Assembly (NCBI GenBank): GCA_031263025.1
Contig: JAISGO010000038.1
Coordinates: forward strand, 3,038 to 67,037
Source of the DNA: Coriobacteriales bacterium
GTDB taxonomy: Bacteria; Actinomycetota; Coriobacteriia; Coriobacteriales; UBA8131
Direction: 5' to 3'
Length of the DNA stretch: 64,000 nucleotides
Below are positions 3,647-62,963 of this stretch, piece after piece. Made by a program: the position numbers and the translations under genes. Every line of letters starts with the position of its first letter. Positions within the stretch are counted from its first letter, which is position 1. Under the pieces are notes generated by a model, which saw only the letters and a program-made list of their open reading frames with translations, did no database searches and was not told the DNA's origin.

Positions 3647-3833
3647 TTTCCTCTTTATTCGGCACATTCGGGCTTTACCGTACCCCTCGATACCGCCAAG
3701 GTAACTTCGGCGCACGGCAAAGGCCCGACTGCACTCGAATAAAGAGGAAATCGCGCAATGGTTTATTCGGCACATTCGGGCTTTACCGTACCCCTCGATA
3801 CCGCCAAGGTAACTTCGGCGCAGGGCAAAGGCC
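3645..3833. repeat. 72-bp direct repeat (3654-3725 and 3762-3833, 1 mismatch). The first copy is enclosed by a perfect 17-bp inverted repeat (3645-3661 / 3736-3752).
   Basis: read directly: TTTATTCGGCACATTCGGGCTTTACCGTACCCCTCGATACCGCCAAGGTAACTTCGGCGCA(C/G)GGCAAAGGCC twice; GATTTCCTCTTTATTCG pairs with CGAATAAAGAGGAAATC. Confidence 0.9.
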
Positions 3834-42817: not shown

Positions 42818-42882
42818 CGCCGCCGGTGAGGGGGCGTTTCGCCCCCTCACCTTTCCTGCGCGTTTGTCGACGCTCGCTTCCA

Positions 42883-43145
42883 GGTAGAATAGGGGAGCGA
42901 GTTAGCGTTTCGCCGGGTGCGCCTAATCTTCCCGTGGGGAGAGGAGGTGATGCCCTTATGGATGTCTTACAGCTGATAACCGCAGCGATCCGGCTTTTAC
43001 TGGTCGTGGCGAAACTGCCGAAAGCGTTCAGGCGTTTACGCCAGGAAAGGAAGAAGCGTCCATAAAGGACGCTTCCTAATCTTAATCGGCGCACCCGGCG
43101 TCAGTCACAACCACGGGGCGCTAACTCGCTTGATTATACCACGGC
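42883..43145. repeat. 263-bp direct repeat, copy 1 (copy 2 = 53466-53728)
   Basis: read directly, ~93% identical, same orientation in both copies. Confidence 0.9.
42958..43065 (+). CDS. 35-aa hydrophobic/basic peptide (type-I-toxin-like candidate), copy 1
   Basis: MDVLQLITAAIRLLLVVAKLPKAFRRLRQERKKRP; SD GGAGAGGAGGTG; identical peptide in copy 2 despite 6 nt changes. Confidence 0.5.
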   Translation: MDVLQLITAAIRLLLVVAKLPKAFRRLRQERKKRP

Positions 43146-43157
43146 TTGAATAAGGAA

Positions 43158-43379
43158 AAGGCCGGGCACACTACGGCCCGGTCTTATTCGGTTGATGAAA
43201 CGTTTCAATCCACGTGCCTACTGAGGATAGACACGACGAGGCTATTATACGTCGTCTTCTCTGCCTACACCGCGCTGATTATTCCTATTCTGCTTTTGAA
43301 GGGTTCGGCCTGCTTGCGCGGCGCTCGCCCTTGTCGCTCCGGCGACTGTATCATCCATCTTTCGAGGACCGAGGTGAGG
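43158..43379. repeat. ~220-bp direct repeat, copy 1 (copy 2 = 43858-44077): tail-coding segment plus terminator
   Basis: read directly; contains hairpin CCGGGC..GCCCGG followed on the minus strand by a U-rich run. Confidence 0.85.
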
Positions 43380-43409
43380 ATAGCCTTTTTGGCTTTTTTG
43401 CTCGACACG

Positions 43410-43832
43410 CTACATCCTCGTTAAGACGTTATTTGACACATAGAGGTTGCGGCGTCTGAACTCCGGAGGACTGTCGTCTCGCATGACTTTCACGAGTTCT
43501 GGCCTCAGCTCCCCTATAGGCCTTCCAGCGAGCAAAGGCCGATCAAGGAAATACTGCGGCTTCTCGGTCCAAGTGGGTACGCGCAGGTTAAAATCATGTG
43601 CGAGCTTTTCGGCCTCTGCGGCATATTCCGCCATGTCGTCGCATGAAACGTCATAGCCATCTTGCGGGATAGGTTCATACTCGATGAACGACTGTCGCTG
43701 TCTCGGTTTGGCCGCGTAAAAAGCATCGAGGAAATTGCCGTTTGCAGTTGCCGGATCCACGCCTAATGCGCGTTGTGCCATCACTTCACGGAAGTTCAGC
43801 GGTCGCCTATGTAGCAAATCCCTCATTCGCAT
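43410..43832 (-). CDS. hypothetical 140-aa protein ending at a TAG that is in frame with a 54-codon shared tail
   Basis: ORF ..NNVLTRM-TAG-RVEQKSQKGYPHLGPRKMDDTVAGATRASAAQAGR..REDDV* (43409-43245). Confidence 0.5.
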   Translation of the reverse strand: MRMRDLLHRRPLNFREVMAQRALGVDPATANGNFLDAFYAAKPRQRQSFIEYEPIPQDGYDVSCDDMAEYAAEAEKLAHDFNLRVPTWTEKPQYFLDRPLLAGRPIGELRPELVKVMRDDSPPEFRRRNLYVSNNVLTRM

Positions 43833-43942
43833 ATTTTACCACGGCATCAAGAAAGACAAGGCCGGGCACTACGGCCCGGTCTTATTCGGTTGATGAAACG
43901 TTTCAATCCACGTGTCTACTGAGGATAGACACGACGAGGCTA

Positions 43943-44788
43943 TTATACATCGTCTTCTCTGCCTACACCGCGCTGAGGGTTCCTGTTTTGTCCTTGGAAG
44001 TCCCTTCCTGCTTGCGCGGCGCTCGCCCTTGTCGCTCCGGCGACTATATCATCCATCTTCCGAGGACCGAGGTGAGGTACAGCCGGCTTAGATTTATCCT
44101 CGTTAATTTTCTGTCCCGTTCTCTCTTTCGAGAAGTCAGTACCGACAAGGCAATCCTCATAAAGGAATAGCTTCAAGGGGGTCGGTTCGTTCGTTTCGTA
44201 GAAGTCCGTGAGCGCTTTCCTGAACCGGCTTAACTTGTTCTCCGCGATAGCGAGGATGCCGAACCCCTGAGAAATGAGGTAATGATTCGCTGCGAGTTGC
44301 GCCGTCCGTTTATTGCCGTCGAAGAAAAGCTGCTTACGACAGACCCAGCACATTATGTCGAGGCCCTTCTCGGGGCCTTCGGGTCCACGTAACATGCTCT
44401 CGAACCCTTCCTTATCCATCTGTTCGTTTGGAATGTCGGGTCGCCATGTCGTGCCGCCGATCCTCACGTCCACCGTCCTGACTTTCCCAGGTTCCCTCGT
44501 AACCCCGGCCTCGCCGATAAGCTGGTTGAACTCTTTCAGCATCCGGAAATCAAGTGGCACCTCGATTTCCTGCAAGCAATACTCCCAAGCGTGTTTGAGG
44601 TTGTTGATGGCGATGGTCTCGTTTACGGAGAGACCTGACACGGTTCTCCCCTCGAAGATCTCGGCGGTGTCCGGAAAAGTTACGTTGATTCCCTCTAGCC
44701 TGGCCTCTTTCCATATACTATCGACCACAAGACGCTTGGCGTACCAAACGTTCTCCTCTTGCGTCATATCGAACTTGTTCTCGAACAT
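43943..44788 (-). CDS. Fic/Doc-family protein with non-canonical motif (Gln in place of catalytic His) and portable C-terminal tail
   Basis: CRKQLFFDGNKRTAQLAANHYL aligns to HxFx(D/N)(A/G)NKR; N-terminal ARLEGINVTF. Confidence 0.7.
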   Translation of the reverse strand: MFENKFDMTQEENVWYAKRLVVDSIWKEARLEGINVTFPDTAEIFEGRTVSGLSVNETIAINNLKHAWEYCLQEIEVPLDFRMLKEFNQLIGEAGVTREPGKVRTVDVRIGGTTWRPDIPNEQMDKEGFESMLRGPEGPEKGLDIMCWVCRKQLFFDGNKRTAQLAANHYLISQGFGILAIAENKLSRFRKALTDFYETNEPTPLKLFLYEDCLVGTDFSKERTGQKINEDKSKPAVPHLGPRKMDDIVAGATRASAAQAGRDFQGQNRNPQRGVGREDDV

Positions 44789-53334: not shown

Positions 53335-53540
53335 AAGATGAGCGCCAGAAATCAATAGTGAGTTGAGTTTGGCAGGCTCAAAATTAAAAGGTGATATAAA
53401 TATAGCACTAATTCAGAAAAAGTCAAACGAGAAGGATTAAGTCCTAGAGCCGCCGGGGACTACCAAGTAGAATAGATAAACGAGTTAGCGTTTCGCCGGG
53501 TGCGCCTAATCTTCCCGTGGGGAGAGGAGGTGATGCCCTC

Positions 53541-53648
53541 ATGGATGTCTTACAGCTGATAACCGCAGCGATCCGGCTTTTGCTGGTCGTGGCGAAGCTG
53601 CCGAAAGCGTTCAGACGTTTGCGCCAGGAAAGGAAGAAGCGCCCGTAA
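53541..53648 (+). CDS. 35-aa hydrophobic/basic peptide, copy 2
   Basis: identical peptide to 42958..43065; same SD; lies in the 263-bp repeat 53466-53728. Confidence 0.5.
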   Translation: MDVLQLITAAIRLLLVVAKLPKAFRRLRQERKKRP

Positions 53649-53727
53649 AGGACGCTTCCTAATCTTAATCGGCGCACCCGACACCAGTTACAACCACGGG
53701 GCGCTAACTCATTTGATTATACCACGG

Positions 53728-54993
53728 CTATTTGGTTTTGGCCGTTTTAGTGGCACTAGTGGAGCTTACGCCAGCGCGGACGACAGAGACCTTGACTGTG
53801 TACTTCTTCTTGTCCCTAAGCTTCAAAGTTACCTTGTGTGCAGAGCTTGATTTGAGCGATTTGGTCTTCCAAGTTGTCCCTTTGGTCTTATAGGAGACCT
53901 TATAGGAGGAGGCGTTGGCTTTACTTGACGAGAAGTTCTTCCAGGAGACAATCAGCTTGTTGTTACCTGATTTGACTTTGAGAGCGGAGACCTTATGCGG
54001 GTAAATGGTGTATGTACCAAGCTCCAGCATCATAGCCGCGTTATAAGCGTCGGATCCCGTACAAGAGACCGAGACGGTGTACTTTCCGGCCTTGGTCGGA
54101 CGTTTCGTTGACTGGTTGTAGTAGACCTTTATCTTGCCAGCTGCGACCGATGATTTGACGTCAGAGGATTGAGTTTTCTTGTTGTACGTGTCAGAGGTCT
54201 CGAAGGTGAAATCTGAAGCGCTGAGGTCGGCTTTAGTGATACCGGCAGGTTCTTCGGGAACGACTGGGACGATTGGGGCAACTGGAGTGTTCGGAGAAGG
54301 CTCAGGCTCTGGTTGTGGATTAGGATTAGGGACGGGATTAGCCGGTGTAGGCTTAGGATTAGGGGTCGGCTGAGGGTTAGCGACCCATTCACTTGTAATG
54401 TAACCGCCTTTGTCGCCGCAAGTATTAAGGCAGTTCCAACCAAGTGGATCGGGGAACATGAAAAGCTCATCGGGGTTAGCTTCAGCTTGCAGGGCTAGGT
54501 CTTCGGGTATCACAACTTCGCCGGCAGTTTGGTAAACCTGGACAATTTCGGGGATGATGTCGCCGTTCTGATCCGGAAGACCAGAGATTCTAGCGTCTAC
54601 ATTTGAGTGTTCATTAAGCTCCGATAGCAAACCCATCGAGGGGTCATTTATGTCTTCTTCAGTTGACCAACAAAGAACATCAGTAGACGTGTCTTTAAGG
54701 ATTTCGTCCATGTGTTTGTTGATGTATTTTACGGTAACTACCGACATACGCTTCCAGGGATAAGGTGGGTCGAATTGATAAGGGTCATTTGCAGCCGAAA
54801 AGTATGTTCCCCGCAGAGGAGTCGATGTTGACGCTTCCGAGTAGTGCAGGGTATAGACATAATGACCAGATTCGCTTTCGTTTGCAAAAGCAGAATGGGC
54901 GGTTTTACCAAGAAGAGCGAGAGAAAGGACAAGGGAAAGGGCGATGCAAAAGGCGGCTTTAATCGCCGTTGTACGAGCGGTGTTCTTGTTCAT
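53728..54993 (-). CDS. secreted surface protein (paralog of 44815..46497)
   Basis: signal peptide ..LLGKTAHSAFA; shared ESGH(W/Y)VYTLH, DPSMG, QNG(E/D)IIPEI; RBS AAGGAGG. Confidence 0.7.
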   Translation of the reverse strand: MNKNTARTTAIKAAFCIALSLVLSLALLGKTAHSAFANESESGHYVYTLHYSEASTSTPLRGTYFSAANDPYQFDPPYPWKRMSVVTVKYINKHMDEILKDTSTDVLCWSTEEDINDPSMGLLSELNEHSNVDARISGLPDQNGDIIPEIVQVYQTAGEVVIPEDLALQAEANPDELFMFPDPLGWNCLNTCGDKGGYITSEWVANPQPTPNPKPTPANPVPNPNPQPEPEPSPNTPVAPIVPVVPEEPAGITKADLSASDFTFETSDTYNKKTQSSDVKSSVAAGKIKVYYNQSTKRPTKAGKYTVSVSCTGSDAYNAAMMLELGTYTIYPHKVSALKVKSGNNKLIVSWKNFSSSKANASSYKVSYKTKGTTWKTKSLKSSSAHKVTLKLRDKKKYTVKVSVVRAGVSSTSATKTAKTK

Positions 54994-55038
54994 AGTAGCC
55001 TCCTTAAAGCTTTATAGATTTTATATAAGAAAGTACGG

Positions 55039-55078
55039 TATATACAAGCTATAAATATTTATTTATAGCTTGTATATA
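55039..55078. promoter_or_regulatory. perfect 19-bp inverted repeat (right-module operator type) upstream of 53728..54993
   Basis: TATATACAAGCTATAAATA-TT-TATTTATAGCTTGTATATA. Confidence 0.6.
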
Positions 55079-55249
55079 ATTATAGCATTTATATCACTTC
55101 GCGTCAACTACACTACGCTTCCAAGATTACTCGCGTCCGGGCGCTCTTCGCTGGGGGCCGTCCCCGGCACCCACGCAACATTCAGTTGGTGGCAGGCTTT
55201 CAGTTGTCAAGGTGCAAATACCCAAGTCCTGGAAAGGACGGCGGGAGAT

Positions 55250-60385: not shown

Positions 60386-60525
60386 TACCGGCCTTTCAGT
60401 TAATAGCTTCTATTCAATCATAGTCTATCATAGAATAGTAGCTAATTTTATAGCAAGCTATAAAAGATATGTTTATTGCAAAGATATAAAAGCAATAATT
60501 ATATAAATATAGCTAAGGAGTCTTA

Positions 60526-60789
60526 CTAATCTTTCCTTATCAGGTCAGCGATGATTAGGTCGCGGACATAAGCCGAGAAAGAAGAATGGAGTTTCGCTGC
60601 CTTTGCCTTCGCCTGCCATTTGAGCTTATCAGGCATCCTTAGAATGACCGAGACATTCTCCTCTTTCGTGCCGTCCGGGGGCAGGGGCAGGCGTACCCGA
60701 CTCCCTTCCACTTTCTGATACTTGCGTTTCTGCTCTGTGGCGGCTTTCGTGAATATCTCAGCAGATTTCTTCTCAGCCATTTCAACCAA
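60526..60789 (-). CDS. ParG-like RHH partition protein
   Basis: overlaps the parA(R) stop by 8 nt; VSVILRMPDKLKWQAKAKAAKLHSSFSAYVRDLI. Confidence 0.55.
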   Translation of the reverse strand: MVEMAEKKSAEIFTKAATEQKRKYQKVEGSRVRLPLPPDGTKEENVSVILRMPDKLKWQAKAKAAKLHSSFSAYVRDLIIADLIRKD

Positions 60790-61333
60790 CCTCCTTGATT
60801 ATCCTGTCGCAAAGCTCCTCGAAAGCAGCTGCGGCCTTATTCTTCTTGTTGAACTCATATATTGACATCTGAGCGGCCTGTGCCTGGACGATAGCTGTCG
60901 TGGTAGGAATAGTCGTCCATACCGGCATCTCGCAGTTAGCGAGGTAACGGAGGAAGTCGCTATCAGCGAGGCGCCGTTTATCGTAGAAGTTCACGGCTAT
61001 GCCAAGGTGGGCTTTAGTCTTGGACTTCACTGCCTTGTCCCAGCAGCGCATAAGCGGAATCTGGTCTAAGGTGGACGCCCGTGTCGGCATCACGATGAGA
61101 TCAGCCGCGCGGCACCACTCAGCAAAGTCTTTGTGGAGTGTAGGCGGAGTATCTACGATCAAAAAATCATCGTCGTCTTTGGGGAGGGTTGGCGCATGTA
61201 GGACGCCACCTTGCGGGTCGAGGTTTTGGAAGCTCACCTTGTAGCCCCGGCGTTCCAGGGCAAACGCGATCTCATCAGAGACTGTGGTTTTCCCTACCCC
61301 ACCTTTTTGATTGGCTACAAGAACCGTCTTCAT
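60782..61333 (-). CDS. parA: ParA/Soj-type partition ATPase (right)
   Basis: NQKGGVGKTT deviant Walker A. Confidence 0.85.
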   Translation of the reverse strand: MKTVLVANQKGGVGKTTVSDEIAFALERRGYKVSFQNLDPQGGVLHAPTLPKDDDDFLIVDTPPTLHKDFAEWCRAADLIVMPTRASTLDQIPLMRCWDKAVKSKTKAHLGIAVNFYDKRRLADSDFLRYLANCEMPVWTTIPTTTAIVQAQAAQMSIYEFNKKNKAAAAFEELCDRIIKEVG

Positions 61334-61526
61334 GTCCGCTCCTCACGTGCAGATATGTATAAAAGAATAATTATATCATTTATAGAATTATAAAGAAGAT
61401 ATACATGAGTGTCAAACATGCAGGAAAAGACAAAATAATTTCAAAAATTATATAATTGCAATAAATATAGAATTATTACAATTATATAAAGCTAATAAAA
61501 TCCACTACGAACAGAGGAGGCGAACA

Positions 61527-62672
61527 TTGGCCGGACTTACCATAGAACTTGAGCAATATCTTGACGAAGGAAGCTGCAATCGTCCAGGTAAATACCTTAA
61601 CGCGCTCGACCGGCATTTCATAGACATAGCCCTAAATGAATTGAAAATGCCGGTTTCCAAAATCGCGAAGACCTTGGAACGCAGCCGACGGACAATCCAG
61701 AGGGAGATTAGGAGAGGTTCCACTTGGGAAGCGGCCGAAAAAAATACTTATGCTATTGGCAGAAAAAGTAAACAAGATAGGGTGCTGAAGTACCACTGGG
61801 AGGCAGCGGAACGCCTTTTTCGTAAAAGGCAGAAAAATAAAGGATATGGTCTGAAACTAGCCGACGAGAAGTACATGGACGCTGCCGTTTGGTATCACAA
61901 GATGATAGTCGTTGAAGGCCGGTCGCCTGATGAAGTGTGCGGTCGGGCCCGAATTGAAGGGAAGTTGTCGGCGTATGTGTGTTTTAAGACGCTTTACAAC
62001 TACTCGCATAACGGCGTACTTGGGTACAGCGATAAGAACCTGCCGATGGCAGAAATCGAGCGGAAAGCTCAAAAGAAAAGATATACCTATAAGCAGAAGT
62101 ATGTCCGAGGGGAGTCGATTGAGTTCAGGTCGGATGCGGTAAACAAAAGACAGGAGTTCGGGCACTGGGAAGGTGATTTGATTGTAGGTAAGCGTGGCGG
62201 GAAGAAGGAGGTAATCTTAACCTTGGTCGAAAGGAAGACCCGCTATCTTATCGCGGTAGTCCTCGCTTCAAAGGAACATGAGAATGTAGCCGCGTGGTTT
62301 GATCAAGTGGAGCTTATCATCGGGGAAGAGCGCTTCGCCAATATTTTCCGCTCTGTCACCTGGGACAATGGATCGGAGTTCGCCCGTCCGATTGACTTTG
62401 AGACGTCGATATTCGAGCTCCTCGGCATAAGCGGTTCATATCGCACTAGATGTTTCTATGCTCATGCCTACACGTCCTGGGAAAGAGGCTCTAACGAGAA
62501 CTGCAATGGTCTTATTCGCAGGAACGGCATTAAGAAAGGCCATGACATAGAAGAATATGGACAAGAAGTTGTAAGACAGGTTGCTGAGAAGATTAACAAC
62601 AAATGGCGCAAGATCCTAGGGTATCATTCAGCAAAGGAGTATTTCGCAAGAGAAATGAAACTTATAGAATGA
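61527..62672 (+). CDS. IS30-family DDE transposase (right)
   Basis: HWEGDL, TWDNGSEF, WERGSNENCNGLIR; TTG start after AGAGGAGG; ~60% identical to the left copy. Confidence 0.85.
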   Translation: MAGLTIELEQYLDEGSCNRPGKYLNALDRHFIDIALNELKMPVSKIAKTLERSRRTIQREIRRGSTWEAAEKNTYAIGRKSKQDRVLKYHWEAAERLFRKRQKNKGYGLKLADEKYMDAAVWYHKMIVVEGRSPDEVCGRARIEGKLSAYVCFKTLYNYSHNGVLGYSDKNLPMAEIERKAQKKRYTYKQKYVRGESIEFRSDAVNKRQEFGHWEGDLIVGKRGGKKEVILTLVERKTRYLIAVVLASKEHENVAAWFDQVELIIGEERFANIFRSVTWDNGSEFARPIDFETSIFELLGISGSYRTRCFYAHAYTSWERGSNENCNGLIRRNGIKKGHDIEEYGQEVVRQVAEKINNKWRKILGYHSAKEYFAREMKLIE

Positions 62673-62963
62673 TTGGAAATATAGCTTTATTTCTTTTCAT
62701 AAAAGTAATAATTATATAATTATAAAGAATATATACTTGCGATAAGTATATACAATCTCGCAGTAACTGCTACCTATATTGTCGTTTTTTCTTTACCAGA
62801 AAATTTTACAAAAAACCGTCTAAACGGTTGACATGTTTTCAAAAATCAGGTAAAGTACTCCGTAAATAGTGAGTTTTAATGAGCTTGGCAAAGGTATTTG
62901 AAAATTAAAGGGTAAGGTTCCGGCTGCGCCAGTTTCTTTTACAATATTCTTGAGAAACAAGAA

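What the first reader, a model, noticed from the sequence alone, without database searches (positions are those of the whole stretch)
43245..43412. Single in-frame TAG separates the 140-aa ORF from its copy of the shared tail
Reading the minus strand gives ..AAT AAC GTC TTA ACG AGG ATG TAG CGT GTC GAG CAA AAA AGC CAA AAA GGC TAT CCT CAC CTC GGT CCT... This translates as ..NNVLTRM * RVEQKSQKGYPHLGPRKMDD...

The stop (43412-43410) lies three codons before homology to the Doc-like tail begins (EQKSQKGYPHLGP versus EDKSKPAVPHLGP). No further stop occurs until the tail's own TAA (43247-43245).

Three readings are possible: a recent nonsense mutation detached the tail, the TAG is read through to give tailed and untailed isoforms, or the frame match is chance (1 in 3).
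Basis: seen in the sequence. Interest (0 to 1): 0.55.

Follow-up and report, generated by a model that had tools for sequence, protein, structure and literature searches.

The report
Ordinary stop before a duplicated DNA module
The TAG is the normal stop codon of a small gene, and the "tail" after it is one of two copies of a 247-base DNA repeat that also carries a lone CRISPR-like repeat, possibly an RNA decoy against CRISPR immunity.

Summary
The 140-aa ORF (43410-43832, minus strand) ends in TAG, and the same frame stays open for 54 more codons to TAA at 43245-43247.

The TAG is not a recent nonsense mutation. All five full-length homologues end at the same alignment column. The three whose DNA I read have a stop codon there, followed by a nucleotidyltransferase gene.

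The "shared tail" is a DNA repeat (43133-43379 and 43833-44077, 89% identical). It continues about 110 nt past the TAA and flanks the ORF exactly. Fic homologues do not conserve the tail, and no other representative among 1.84 billion proteins carries it.

TAG is the commonest stop in the window (17 of 39 family-supported ORFs). Chance alone would put the ORF in frame about one time in four.

One complication remains: the two tail copies differ mostly by synonymous changes (pN/pS 0.25), so the tail probably evolved as coding sequence.

Each repeat copy also holds a solitary type I-C-like CRISPR repeat. It starts 7 nt after the TAA, lies behind a TATAAT box and is followed by a terminator. This is the architecture of RNA anti-CRISPRs (Racr/Cracr), here on an integrated mobilizable element.

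Readthrough is unsupported but not excluded.

The parts
43410..43832 (-). 140-aa ORF. NCBI annotates 138 aa from the ATG at 43826 (MDR1016663.1). It is an orphan member of a small family that elsewhere sits directly upstream of an AbiEii/DUF6036-like nucleotidyltransferase gene.
   Evidence: AlphaFold model pLDDT 84 with no fold match
43410..43412 (-). TAG, the native stop codon of the ORF. All five full-length homologues end at the same alignment column.
43380..43409 (-). 30-nt unique linker between the TAG and the start of the repeat (10 in-frame sense codons, RVEQKSQKGY)
43133..43379 (-). Repeat copy 1 (247 nt): tail frame + TATAAT + CRISPR-like repeat + terminator + extended -10 box
43245..43379 (-). 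Tail-frame part of copy 1 (PHLGPRKMDDTV...GREDDV + TAA). It is in frame with the 140-aa ORF and differs from copy 2 mostly by synonymous changes.
43244..43249 (-). TATAAT box that contains the tail's TAA. It would place a transcription start at the first base of the CRISPR-like repeat. This is an inference; there is no -35 box.
43202..43237 (-). Solitary type I-C-like CRISPR repeat GTCGTGTCTATCCTCAGTAGGCACGTGGATTGAAAC (copy 1)
   Evidence: 28.5 bits, E 2e-5, full length; predicted hairpin
43184..43201 (-). 18-nt spacer-like stretch GTTTCATCAACCGAATAA between the repeat and the terminator hairpin. No target was found in the window.
43160..43183 (-). Intrinsic-terminator-like hairpin GACCGGGC-CGTAGTGT-GCCCGGCC followed by a T-rich run
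43133..43141 (-). TGGTATAAT extended -10 box at the 3' end of copy 1. It faces the antisense side of the small-toxin module. The same box follows the 421-aa surface-protein gene at 53716-53724.
43833..44077 (-). Repeat copy 2 (245 nt). Its first 135 nt form the last 44 codons and stop of the Fic gene. It ends at the base before the ORF's ATG.
43900..43935 (-). Solitary type I-C-like CRISPR repeat, copy 2. It has one A/G difference that turns a U-G pair into U-A in the stem.
   Evidence: (27.2 bits, E 4.5e-5)
43860..43881 (-). Terminator-like hairpin of copy 2
43833..43841 (-). TGGTAAAAT box. It would start transcription at the ATG at 43826, giving a leaderless mRNA for the 138-aa protein (inference).
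   Evidence: NCBI start
43943..44788 (-). Fic/Doc-like gene (281 aa, MDR1016664.1). The conserved family core ends near residue 222, and the last 44 residues are read from repeat copy 2.

Best explanation
The TAG at 43412-43410 is the ordinary, ancestral stop codon of a 138/140-aa gene. In other genomes this gene family sits directly upstream of an AbiEii/DUF6036-like nucleotidyltransferase gene. Here the partner is missing.

The gene sits between two diverged direct copies of a 247-nt DNA module. Read on the minus strand, each copy contains:
- a 44-codon open frame ending in TAA;
- a TATAAT box that overlaps that TAA;
- a solitary type I-C-like CRISPR repeat starting 7 nt after the TAA;
- an 18-nt spacer-like stretch;
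- an intrinsic terminator;
- an extended -10 box for whatever lies downstream.

The upstream copy supplies the C-terminus of the Fic gene and, by inference, the promoter of the 140-aa gene. The downstream copy follows the 140-aa gene's stop and happens to lie in the same frame.

The most likely history (inferred) is recombination between related mobile elements within this module, which placed the gene between two copies. The tail after the TAG is then a displaced copy of a gene's 3' end and is not translated from this ORF.

For: Native stop: all five full-length homologues (42-48% identity) end at the same alignment column as the window protein. In the three loci whose DNA I read, TGA sits there and a nucleotidyltransferase gene starts 5-60 nt later.

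DNA repeat rather than protein tail:
- The 247/245-nt repeat is 89% identical and runs about 110 nt past the TAA, where it is about 98% identical.
- Copy 2 ends at 43833, the base before the ORF's ATG.
- Of 318 Fic homologues at E <= 0.001, most of the 120 listed cover only 76-80% of the query, and their C-termini are unrelated to each other.
- An exhaustive profile search of 1.84 billion representatives finds the tail only in the Fic protein itself.
- The closest related element, L008, lacks the repeat.

No TAG recoding: TAG ends 17 of 39 Pfam-supported ORFs, including Obg, PriA, ClpX and HflX. The window contains no tRNA.

CRISPR-like repeat:
- A covariance model built only from five outside type I-C repeats and solitary repeats hits 43202-43237 and 43900-43935 full length, at 28.5 and 27.2 bits (E 2e-5 and 4.5e-5). 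The next best hit scores 11 bits.
- The 13 nt CGTGGATTGAAAC, the leading GTCG and the hairpin position all match canonical I-C repeats.
- The only stem difference between the copies is U-G versus U-A.
- Terminator-like hairpins follow in both copies.
- A related element has its own solitary I-C-like repeat at L008:11563-11590 (24.5 bits, E 6e-5), while the 13 other loci searched gave nothing below E = 0.8.

Mobile-element setting: integrases, ParA, relaxases, NikA, HipA/Fic and pilin/sortase genes occupy 32-64 kb, and no ORF screened in the window matched a Cas family.

Known precedents:
- RacrIC1 lies 11 nt after an acrIC5 homologue in a Bifidobacterium prophage (PMC10651486).
- Cracr elements consist of a single repeat-like sequence, a spacer-like sequence and a terminator (bioRxiv 10.1101/2024.10.29.618823).
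Against: The two tail copies differ by 10 synonymous and 8 non-synonymous changes. That gives pN/pS 0.25, the lowest of the six frames, with p about 0.01 by random placement and 0.0007 within the variable patch. A long-untranslated remnant should not look like that. Either the copy was detached recently or it is still translated.

Only two copies exist, both on one contig, so the population history cannot be checked.

No -35 box accompanies either -10 box, and the promoter scan reports no promoter.

The host's CRISPR type is unknown, and no target of the spacer-like stretch occurs in the window.

The CRISPR resemblance was noticed after the fact, through chance database hits, although the model used to test it is independent of the window.
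Confidence: 0.68

Rival explanations
1. Programmed TAG readthrough. A fraction of ribosomes read through the TAG and produce a 140 + 54-aa isoform carrying the same C-terminal tail as the Fic protein.
For: The frame is open for 54 codons after the TAG. The tail shows a coding-like substitution pattern between the two copies, pN/pS 0.25. The base after the stop is C; from general knowledge of E. coli termination this is a weak context, but I did not test it here.
Against: None of the five full-length homologues carries an extension; each ends at this column, and in the three loci examined a separate gene follows. The tail occurs in no other protein representative. TAG is the commonest normal stop, including in housekeeping genes. 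The window holds no tRNA. Chance gives the frame match with probability about 0.23. The 10 linker codons have no counterpart in the other copy.
Confidence: 0.1
2. The repeat carries its own small gene (ATG at 43358, 37 aa MDDTVAGATRAS...GREDDV) that is co-transcribed with the CRISPR-like repeat, like an acr-racr operon. The tail is then translated independently of both upstream ORFs.
For: The ATG is conserved in both copies, and selection in this frame would explain pN/pS 0.25 in both copies. The stop lies 7 nt before the solitary repeat, close to the 11-nt spacing of acrIC5-RacrIC1.
Against: No Shine-Dalgarno-like sequence precedes the ATG (TCCTCGAAAGATG), whereas the neighbouring small toxin gene has a strong one. 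The peptide has no Pfam, PHROG or NCBIfam match and no relatives. This reading needs two independent frame coincidences, with the Fic gene and with the 140-aa ORF, or about 1 in 9.
Confidence: 0.12
3. Recent nonsense mutation. The 140-aa ORF and the tail were one gene until a sense codon mutated to TAG.
For: Only the in-frame arrangement itself.
Against: All five full-length homologues end at this exact column. The three loci whose DNA I read have a stop there, followed by a different gene. The tail is part of a DNA repeat whose boundary lies 30 nt downstream of the TAG. The tail shows no significant similarity to the partner nucleotidyltransferase either.
Confidence: 0.02
4. The CRISPR-like repeat is a chance resemblance, or a relic used only as recombination homology. 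On this view the 247-nt module is just a duplicated terminator-promoter intergenic block with no RNA function.
For: No ORF screened in the window matched a Cas family, no target was found, no -35 box is present, and only two non-independent copies exist. No family in Rfam reaches significance.
Against: An independent I-C model scores 28.5 and 27.2 bits against a background maximum of 11 bits in 128 kb. A second, different solitary I-C-like repeat sits in a related element. The layout of repeat, short spacer-like stretch and terminator matches published Racr/Cracr layouts.
Confidence: 0.2

Closest known systems
Solitary repeat units / RNA anti-CRISPRs (Racr; Camara-Wilpert et al. 2023, PMC10651486), especially RacrIC1
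   Same: A single CRISPR-repeat mimic of type I-C form (GTCG, a 7-8 bp hairpin, then GTGGATTGAAAC), with no neighbouring array and no cas genes among the ORFs screened. It lies on a mobile element in an actinobacterial host and starts a few nucleotides after a stop codon (7 nt here, 11 nt for RacrIC1). A predicted -10 box lies just upstream.
   Different: Untested. The carrier is an integrated mobilizable element rather than a prophage. The loop is longer (36-nt repeat versus 32-33 nt). The element is present twice, inside a 247-nt repeat that also overlaps coding sequence. The host CRISPR type is unknown, and the upstream ORFs are not known anti-CRISPR proteins.
Cracr / viral crRNA-like regulatory RNAs (bioRxiv 10.1101/2024.10.29.618823) and CreA/CreR
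   Same: The architecture is a single repeat-like sequence, a spacer-like stretch and a rho-independent terminator. Such elements are reported on phages and plasmids, including for type I-C and for Actinomycetota.
   Different: The defining partial match of the spacer-like stretch to a cas or creT promoter next to a PAM could not be tested, because the host cas locus is not in the window. Only 18 nt separate the repeat from the terminator hairpin.
Programmed stop-codon readthrough / pyrrolysine (UAG) decoding
   Same: An in-frame UAG followed by a long open frame with coding-like conservation.
   Different: Homologues do not conserve the extension. UAG is the most used ordinary stop here. No Pyl or suppressor components were seen. 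The frame match is within chance.
AbiEi/AbiEii-type (type IV) toxin-antitoxin gene pairs
   Same: Homologues of the 140-aa protein occupy the upstream position of a two-gene cassette whose second gene is an AbiEii/DUF6036-like nucleotidyltransferase.
   Different: The window copy has no nucleotidyltransferase partner. The 140-aa protein matches no AbiEi or other Pfam family and no solved fold.

Membership tests
Solitary repeat unit / Racr | Sequence and hairpin resemble a CRISPR repeat of a defined subtype | tested here: met
   A type I-C model built from five outside repeats hits both copies full length at 28.5 and 27.2 bits (E 2e-5 and 4.5e-5; next best 11 bits). A hairpin is predicted in both copies.
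Solitary repeat unit / Racr | Solitary: no further repeat at spacer distance (about 30-40 nt) | tested here: met
   The window has only two hits, 698 nt apart, each inside a copy of the larger repeat.
Solitary repeat unit / Racr | Carried by a mobile genetic element and not next to cas genes | tested here: met
   Integrase, ParA, relaxase, NikA and pilin genes surround it. None of the 39 larger ORFs screened matches a Cas family.
Solitary repeat unit / Racr | Host carries a CRISPR-Cas system of the matching subtype | not testable with these tools
   Only 64 kb of the MAG is available. The collection scans did not return the source genome.
Solitary repeat unit / Racr | Expressed as a small RNA that inhibits CRISPR interference | not testable with these tools
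   I have only a consensus TATAAT 6 nt upstream and a terminator-like hairpin. The promoter scan, which requires a -35 box, found nothing.
Cracr / CreA-like regulatory crRNA mimic | Spacer-like stretch with a PAM-proximal match of about 10 nt to a cas or toxin promoter | tested here: inconclusive
   The window has no match apart from the two copies themselves. The host cas locus is unavailable.
Programmed stop-codon readthrough | The extension is conserved downstream of the stop in homologues | tested here: not met
   All five full-length homologues end at the same column. In the three loci examined a separate nucleotidyltransferase gene follows.
Programmed stop-codon readthrough | Coding signature in the extension | tested here: inconclusive
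   pN/pS is 0.25 between the two tail copies. The other copy is part of the Fic ORF, so the signal need not come from this locus.
Programmed stop-codon readthrough | Decoding machinery (suppressor or Pyl tRNA) or rarity of the codon as a stop | tested here: not met
   The window has no tRNA. TAG ends 17 of 39 supported ORFs. The rest of the genome was not available.
Pseudogene by nonsense mutation | Homologues have a sense codon at the position of the stop | tested here: not met
   All five full-length homologues end at that column. TGA sits there in the three loci whose DNA I read.
Fic/Doc family (for the 281-aa neighbour that owns the other tail copy) | Fic core motif HxFx(D/E)GNGRxxR or Doc-type HxFxDxNKRT | tested here: inconclusive
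   The Pfam Fic match is just above cutoff (24.7 versus 24 bits). The motif is QLFFDGNKRTA, with Gln invariant in place of His across the 13 aligned family members.

The most novel reading that the evidence does not exclude
The 247-nt module is a portable unit made of a small protein and an RNA anti-CRISPR. On this reading the tail peptide is functional and translated at both copies, which at this locus would need TAG readthrough or internal initiation. It would be co-expressed with a type I-C crRNA mimic, and the module would double as the recombination site through which Coriobacteriales mobilizable elements swap gene cassettes.
Probability: 0.1. Interest if true: 0.6.

Novelty: new member of a known kind. 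Interest (0 to 1): 0.3.

Why it matters
The feature that was flagged, the in-frame TAG, does not matter. It is a normal stop, and genome annotation should leave it as it is.

The part worth keeping is the module behind the "shared tail". It is a candidate RNA anti-CRISPR (a solitary type I-C repeat) on an integrated mobilizable element of an uncultured Coriobacteriales bacterium, and a related element carries a second, different example. Published surveys found about 2,100 such units on viruses but only 90 on plasmids. Examples on integrative mobilizable elements of gut Actinomycetota would modestly extend where this counter-defence is known to occur.

The case also shows how a non-coding module that overlaps a gene's 3' end can look like a shared protein domain.

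Tried and rejected
- Repeat in other collections: I searched for it by megablast and blastn in plasmids and phages and by exact patterns in IMG/VR, JGI metagenomes and GTDB genomes. Only chance hits came back. Two of them were real CRISPR arrays sharing ...GGATTGAAAC, which is what exposed the CRISPR resemblance.
- Rfam: nothing reaches the gathering thresholds. At permissive E-values there is only CRISPR-DR9 (17 bits, E 1.7) and a non-significant "hya" hit on the GCGCCGCGC hairpin (E 6.2).
- Tail as a protein: no Pfam, NCBIfam or PHROG family. No word-sharing candidate. The exhaustive search found only the Fic protein itself plus two repetitive false positives.
- Tail as a decayed N-terminus of the missing nucleotidyltransferase partner: rejected. 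DNA and protein alignments score no better than shuffles.
- Tail as a native C-terminus of this Fic subfamily: not significant against the closest homologue's tail (p 0.05-0.18).
- An 11-mer, TTAACGAGGAT, is shared by the end of the ORF and the Fic tail region. It is marginal (p about 0.02) and remains unexplained.
- RNA-structure explanation for the variable patch: a 9-bp helix encloses it, but two sequences cannot test covariation.
- Function of the 140-aa protein: the AlphaFold model is confident (pLDDT 84), but it has no PDB or BFVD fold match and no PADLOC match.
- Reaching beyond the window on the source contig: the exact-protein look-ups did not return it.

Full report
**1. The observation**

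On the minus strand a 140-aa ORF runs from 43832 to 43410. It ends ...AAT AAC GTC TTA ACG AGG ATG TAG. The same frame then continues without a stop for 54 codons (RVEQKSQKGYPHLGPRKMDD...GREDDV) to TAA at 43247-43245.

The 281-aa Fic/Doc-like ORF immediately upstream (43943-44788, minus strand) ends with a very similar 44 residues. NCBI annotates the two genes as consecutive proteins of a Coriobacteriales MAG, MDR1016663.1 (138 aa) and MDR1016664.1, on an 86-kb contig.

**2. The TAG is the native stop**

A search of 5.8 billion proteins found six relatives of the 140-aa protein at 42-48% identity. The five that are complete at the C-terminus all end at the same alignment column as the window protein: NVLTRM, NILERR, NALTRY, NALVRY, NVLERY and NALARY.

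In the three loci whose DNA I read, a TGA stop sits at that position. A second gene starts 5-60 nt later. That gene is an AbiEii/DUF6036-like nucleotidyltransferase.

So the family is the upstream member of a two-gene cassette, and the window copy is an orphan that has kept its own stop. This refutes the "recent nonsense mutation" reading. The tail is not a decayed piece of the missing partner either, because DNA and protein alignments to the partner's N-terminus score no better than shuffles.

**3. The "shared tail" is a DNA repeat, not a protein module**

The similarity is a 247/245-nt direct repeat, 43133-43379 versus 43833-44077, at 89% identity.
- It begins at CCT CAC, ten codons after the TAG.
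- It contains a 30-nt patch that is about 50% diverged.
- It then continues about 110 nt beyond the TAA at roughly 98% identity.
- Copy 2 ends at 43833, the base before the ORF's ATG.

The unique segment between the copies (43380-43832, 453 nt) is therefore exactly the ORF plus a 30-nt linker.

The tail is not a feature of the Fic family. Of 318 Fic homologues at E <= 0.001, most of the 120 listed cover only 76-80% of the query. The conserved core ends near residue 222, and the C-termini beyond it are unrelated to one another.

The tail of the closest homologue (P0009, 59% identity) is not significantly similar, and its locus lacks the repeat. An exhaustive profile search of 1.84 billion representatives found the tail only in the Fic protein itself. 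The repeat was not found in plasmid, phage, IMG/VR, JGI metagenome or GTDB collections.

**4. Is the frame match more than chance?**

No. The tail frame is open because it copies a sequence that is read as part of the Fic ORF. An unrelated upstream ORF lands in that frame one time in three. Ten stop-free linker codons at this base composition add a factor of about 0.7 (my estimate).

TAG is not a special codon here. It ends 17 of 39 Pfam-supported ORFs in the window, including Obg, PriA, ClpX and HflX. ARAGORN finds no tRNA in the window.

**5. A complication: the tail looks like coding sequence**

The two tail copies differ at 18 positions. In the tail frame, 10 of these changes are synonymous and 8 are not. 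That gives pN/pS 0.25, the lowest of the six frames.

Random placement of the same number of changes reaches 10 synonymous in 0.9% of trials. Randomising only inside the variable patch reaches it in 0.07%. This is moderate evidence that the tail evolved as translated sequence for most of the time since the copies diverged.

Three explanations are compatible with this:
- (a) The copy after the ORF was detached from a coding context recently. This is my preferred reading.
- (b) The repeat has its own small ORF (ATG at 43358, 37 aa). However, no ribosome-binding site precedes it, and two separate frame coincidences are needed.
- (c) The TAG is read through.

A predicted 9-bp helix (GCGCCGCGC/GCGCGGUGU) encloses the variable patch. 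An RNA constraint is therefore also conceivable, but two sequences cannot test it.

**6. What the repeat contains**

The CRISPR resemblance came to light by accident. Exact-match scans with a 20-mer from the best-conserved block returned real CRISPR arrays that share ...GGATTGAAAC.

The block starting 7 nt after the TAA reads GTCGTGTCTATCCTCAGTAG[G/A]CACGTGGATTGAAAC. It has the same leading GTCG as canonical type I-C repeats. It has a hairpin in the same place and the same 13-nt 3' end, CGTGGATTGAAAC.

I tested this with a covariance model built only from five outside sequences. One came from a metagenomic array and four from the supplement of the Racr paper. Scored over the whole window with filters off, the results were:

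| Hit | Score | E-value |
|---|---|---|
| 43202-43237 (-) | 28.5 bits | 2e-5 |
| 43900-43935 (-) | 27.2 bits | 4.5e-5 |
| Next best in the window | 11.4 bits | 1.4 |

Both top hits are full length. The one stem difference between the copies changes U-G to U-A, so pairing is kept on this strand.

The features around the repeat are as follows:
- A consensus TATAAT (43244-49 and 43942-47) contains the tail's TAA. It would place a transcription start at the first base of the repeat. This is an inference; there is no -35 box, and the promoter scan finds nothing.
- Eighteen nucleotides after the repeat comes a terminator-like hairpin with a T-rich run, in both copies.
- The module ends in an extended -10 box. 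TGGTAAAAT in copy 2 would start a leaderless mRNA at the NCBI-annotated ATG of the ORF. TGGTATAAT in copy 1 faces the antisense side of a small-toxin module.

**7. Setting**

Positions 1-31 kb are chromosomal housekeeping genes. Positions 32-64 kb hold two integrated mobilizable elements, with rve-type integrases, ParA, MobA/VirD2 relaxases, NikA, HipA/Fic, AbiEii and pilin/sortase genes. None of the 39 larger ORFs I screened against Pfam matched a Cas family.

The same I-C model also finds a different solitary repeat, GTCGCGGCCTAGCCGCGTGGATTAAAAC (24.5 bits, E 6e-5). It lies in an intergenic region of L008, the related element that carries the closest Fic homologue. The 13 other loci searched gave nothing below E = 0.8.

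**8. Comparison with what is known**

Solitary repeat units on phages and plasmids act as RNA anti-CRISPRs (Racrs). RacrIC1 lies 11 nt downstream of an acrIC5 homologue in a Bifidobacterium prophage and is co-transcribed with it (PMC10651486).

Cracr elements consist of one repeat-like sequence, a spacer-like sequence and a terminator. They redirect Cas complexes to cas or toxin promoters, and they are reported for type I-C and for Actinomycetota (bioRxiv 10.1101/2024.10.29.618823).

The module here has that anatomy. Three things could not be tested: whether the host has a type I-C system, whether the RNA is made, and whether the 18-nt stretch has a target. There is no target in the window.

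I therefore call it a candidate, a new member of a known kind, and not a demonstrated Racr or Cracr.

**9. Verdict**

The flagged TAG is an ordinary stop codon. Its in-frame relation to the tail is best explained by chance, after recombination placed an orphan gene between two copies of a 3'-end/intergenic module (confidence about 0.68).

Readthrough (about 0.1) and an independent small ORF (about 0.12) remain possible because of the coding-like divergence of the tail. The interesting content is the pair of solitary type I-C-like repeats, not the stop codon.

Noticed in passing
42958-43065 (+) and 53541-53648 (+); repeat 42877-43146 / 53460-53729: A 35-aa hydrophobic-then-basic peptide gene (MDVLQLITAAIRLLLVVAKLPKAFRRLRQERKKRP) with a strong Shine-Dalgarno sequence, present in two copies. 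All 6 nucleotide differences between the copies are synonymous. A convergent TGGTATAAT box lies on the opposite strand. It looks like a type I toxin-antitoxin module and has no Pfam match.
   Followed up: partly
L008:11563-11590 (+): A related mobilizable element (JGI 3300042599, carrying the closest Fic homologue) has its own, different solitary type I-C-like repeat, GTCGCGGCCTAGCCGCGTGGATTAAAAC (24.5 bits, E 6e-5). It sits in an intergenic region.
   Followed up: partly
43943-44788 (-), motif near residues 151-163: In the 13 aligned members of this Fic/Doc-like family, Gln is invariant where Fic and Doc proteins have the catalytic His (RxQxFxDGNKRT). The enzymatic activity may therefore differ from that of canonical Fic or Doc.
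   Followed up: no
43414-43424 and 44096-44106 (-): The 11-mer TTAACGAGGAT occurs both in the last codons of the 140-aa ORF and in the Fic gene just upstream of repeat copy 2, in different frames. It is marginal by shuffling (p about 0.02) and remains unexplained.
   Followed up: partly
43267-43324 and 43965-44022 (-): A predicted 9-bp helix (GCGCCGCGC/GCGCGGUGU) encloses the 30-nt hypervariable patch of the repeat. The 5' arm and loop start of copy 1 resemble the Rfam hya motif, but not significantly (17 bits, E 6.2).
   Followed up: partly
32000-64000: Two neighbouring integrated mobilizable elements have parallel gene sets: an HTH_38/rve integrase, ParA, a relaxase, surface or pilin proteins, and HipA/Fic or AbiEii genes. 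AT-rich 17-nt-spaced repeats lie at 55033-55095 and 60443-62769, near the second element's ParA and integrase genes.
   Followed up: no
3654-3725 and 3762-3833 (+): A 72-nt tandem duplication (99% identical) lies just upstream of, and runs into the start of, the LytB/IspH gene.
   Followed up: no
L006:1091-1575: In one homologous locus the nucleotidyltransferase partner gene is split into 65-aa and 96-aa ORFs, which suggests a frameshifted or decaying partner.
   Followed up: no
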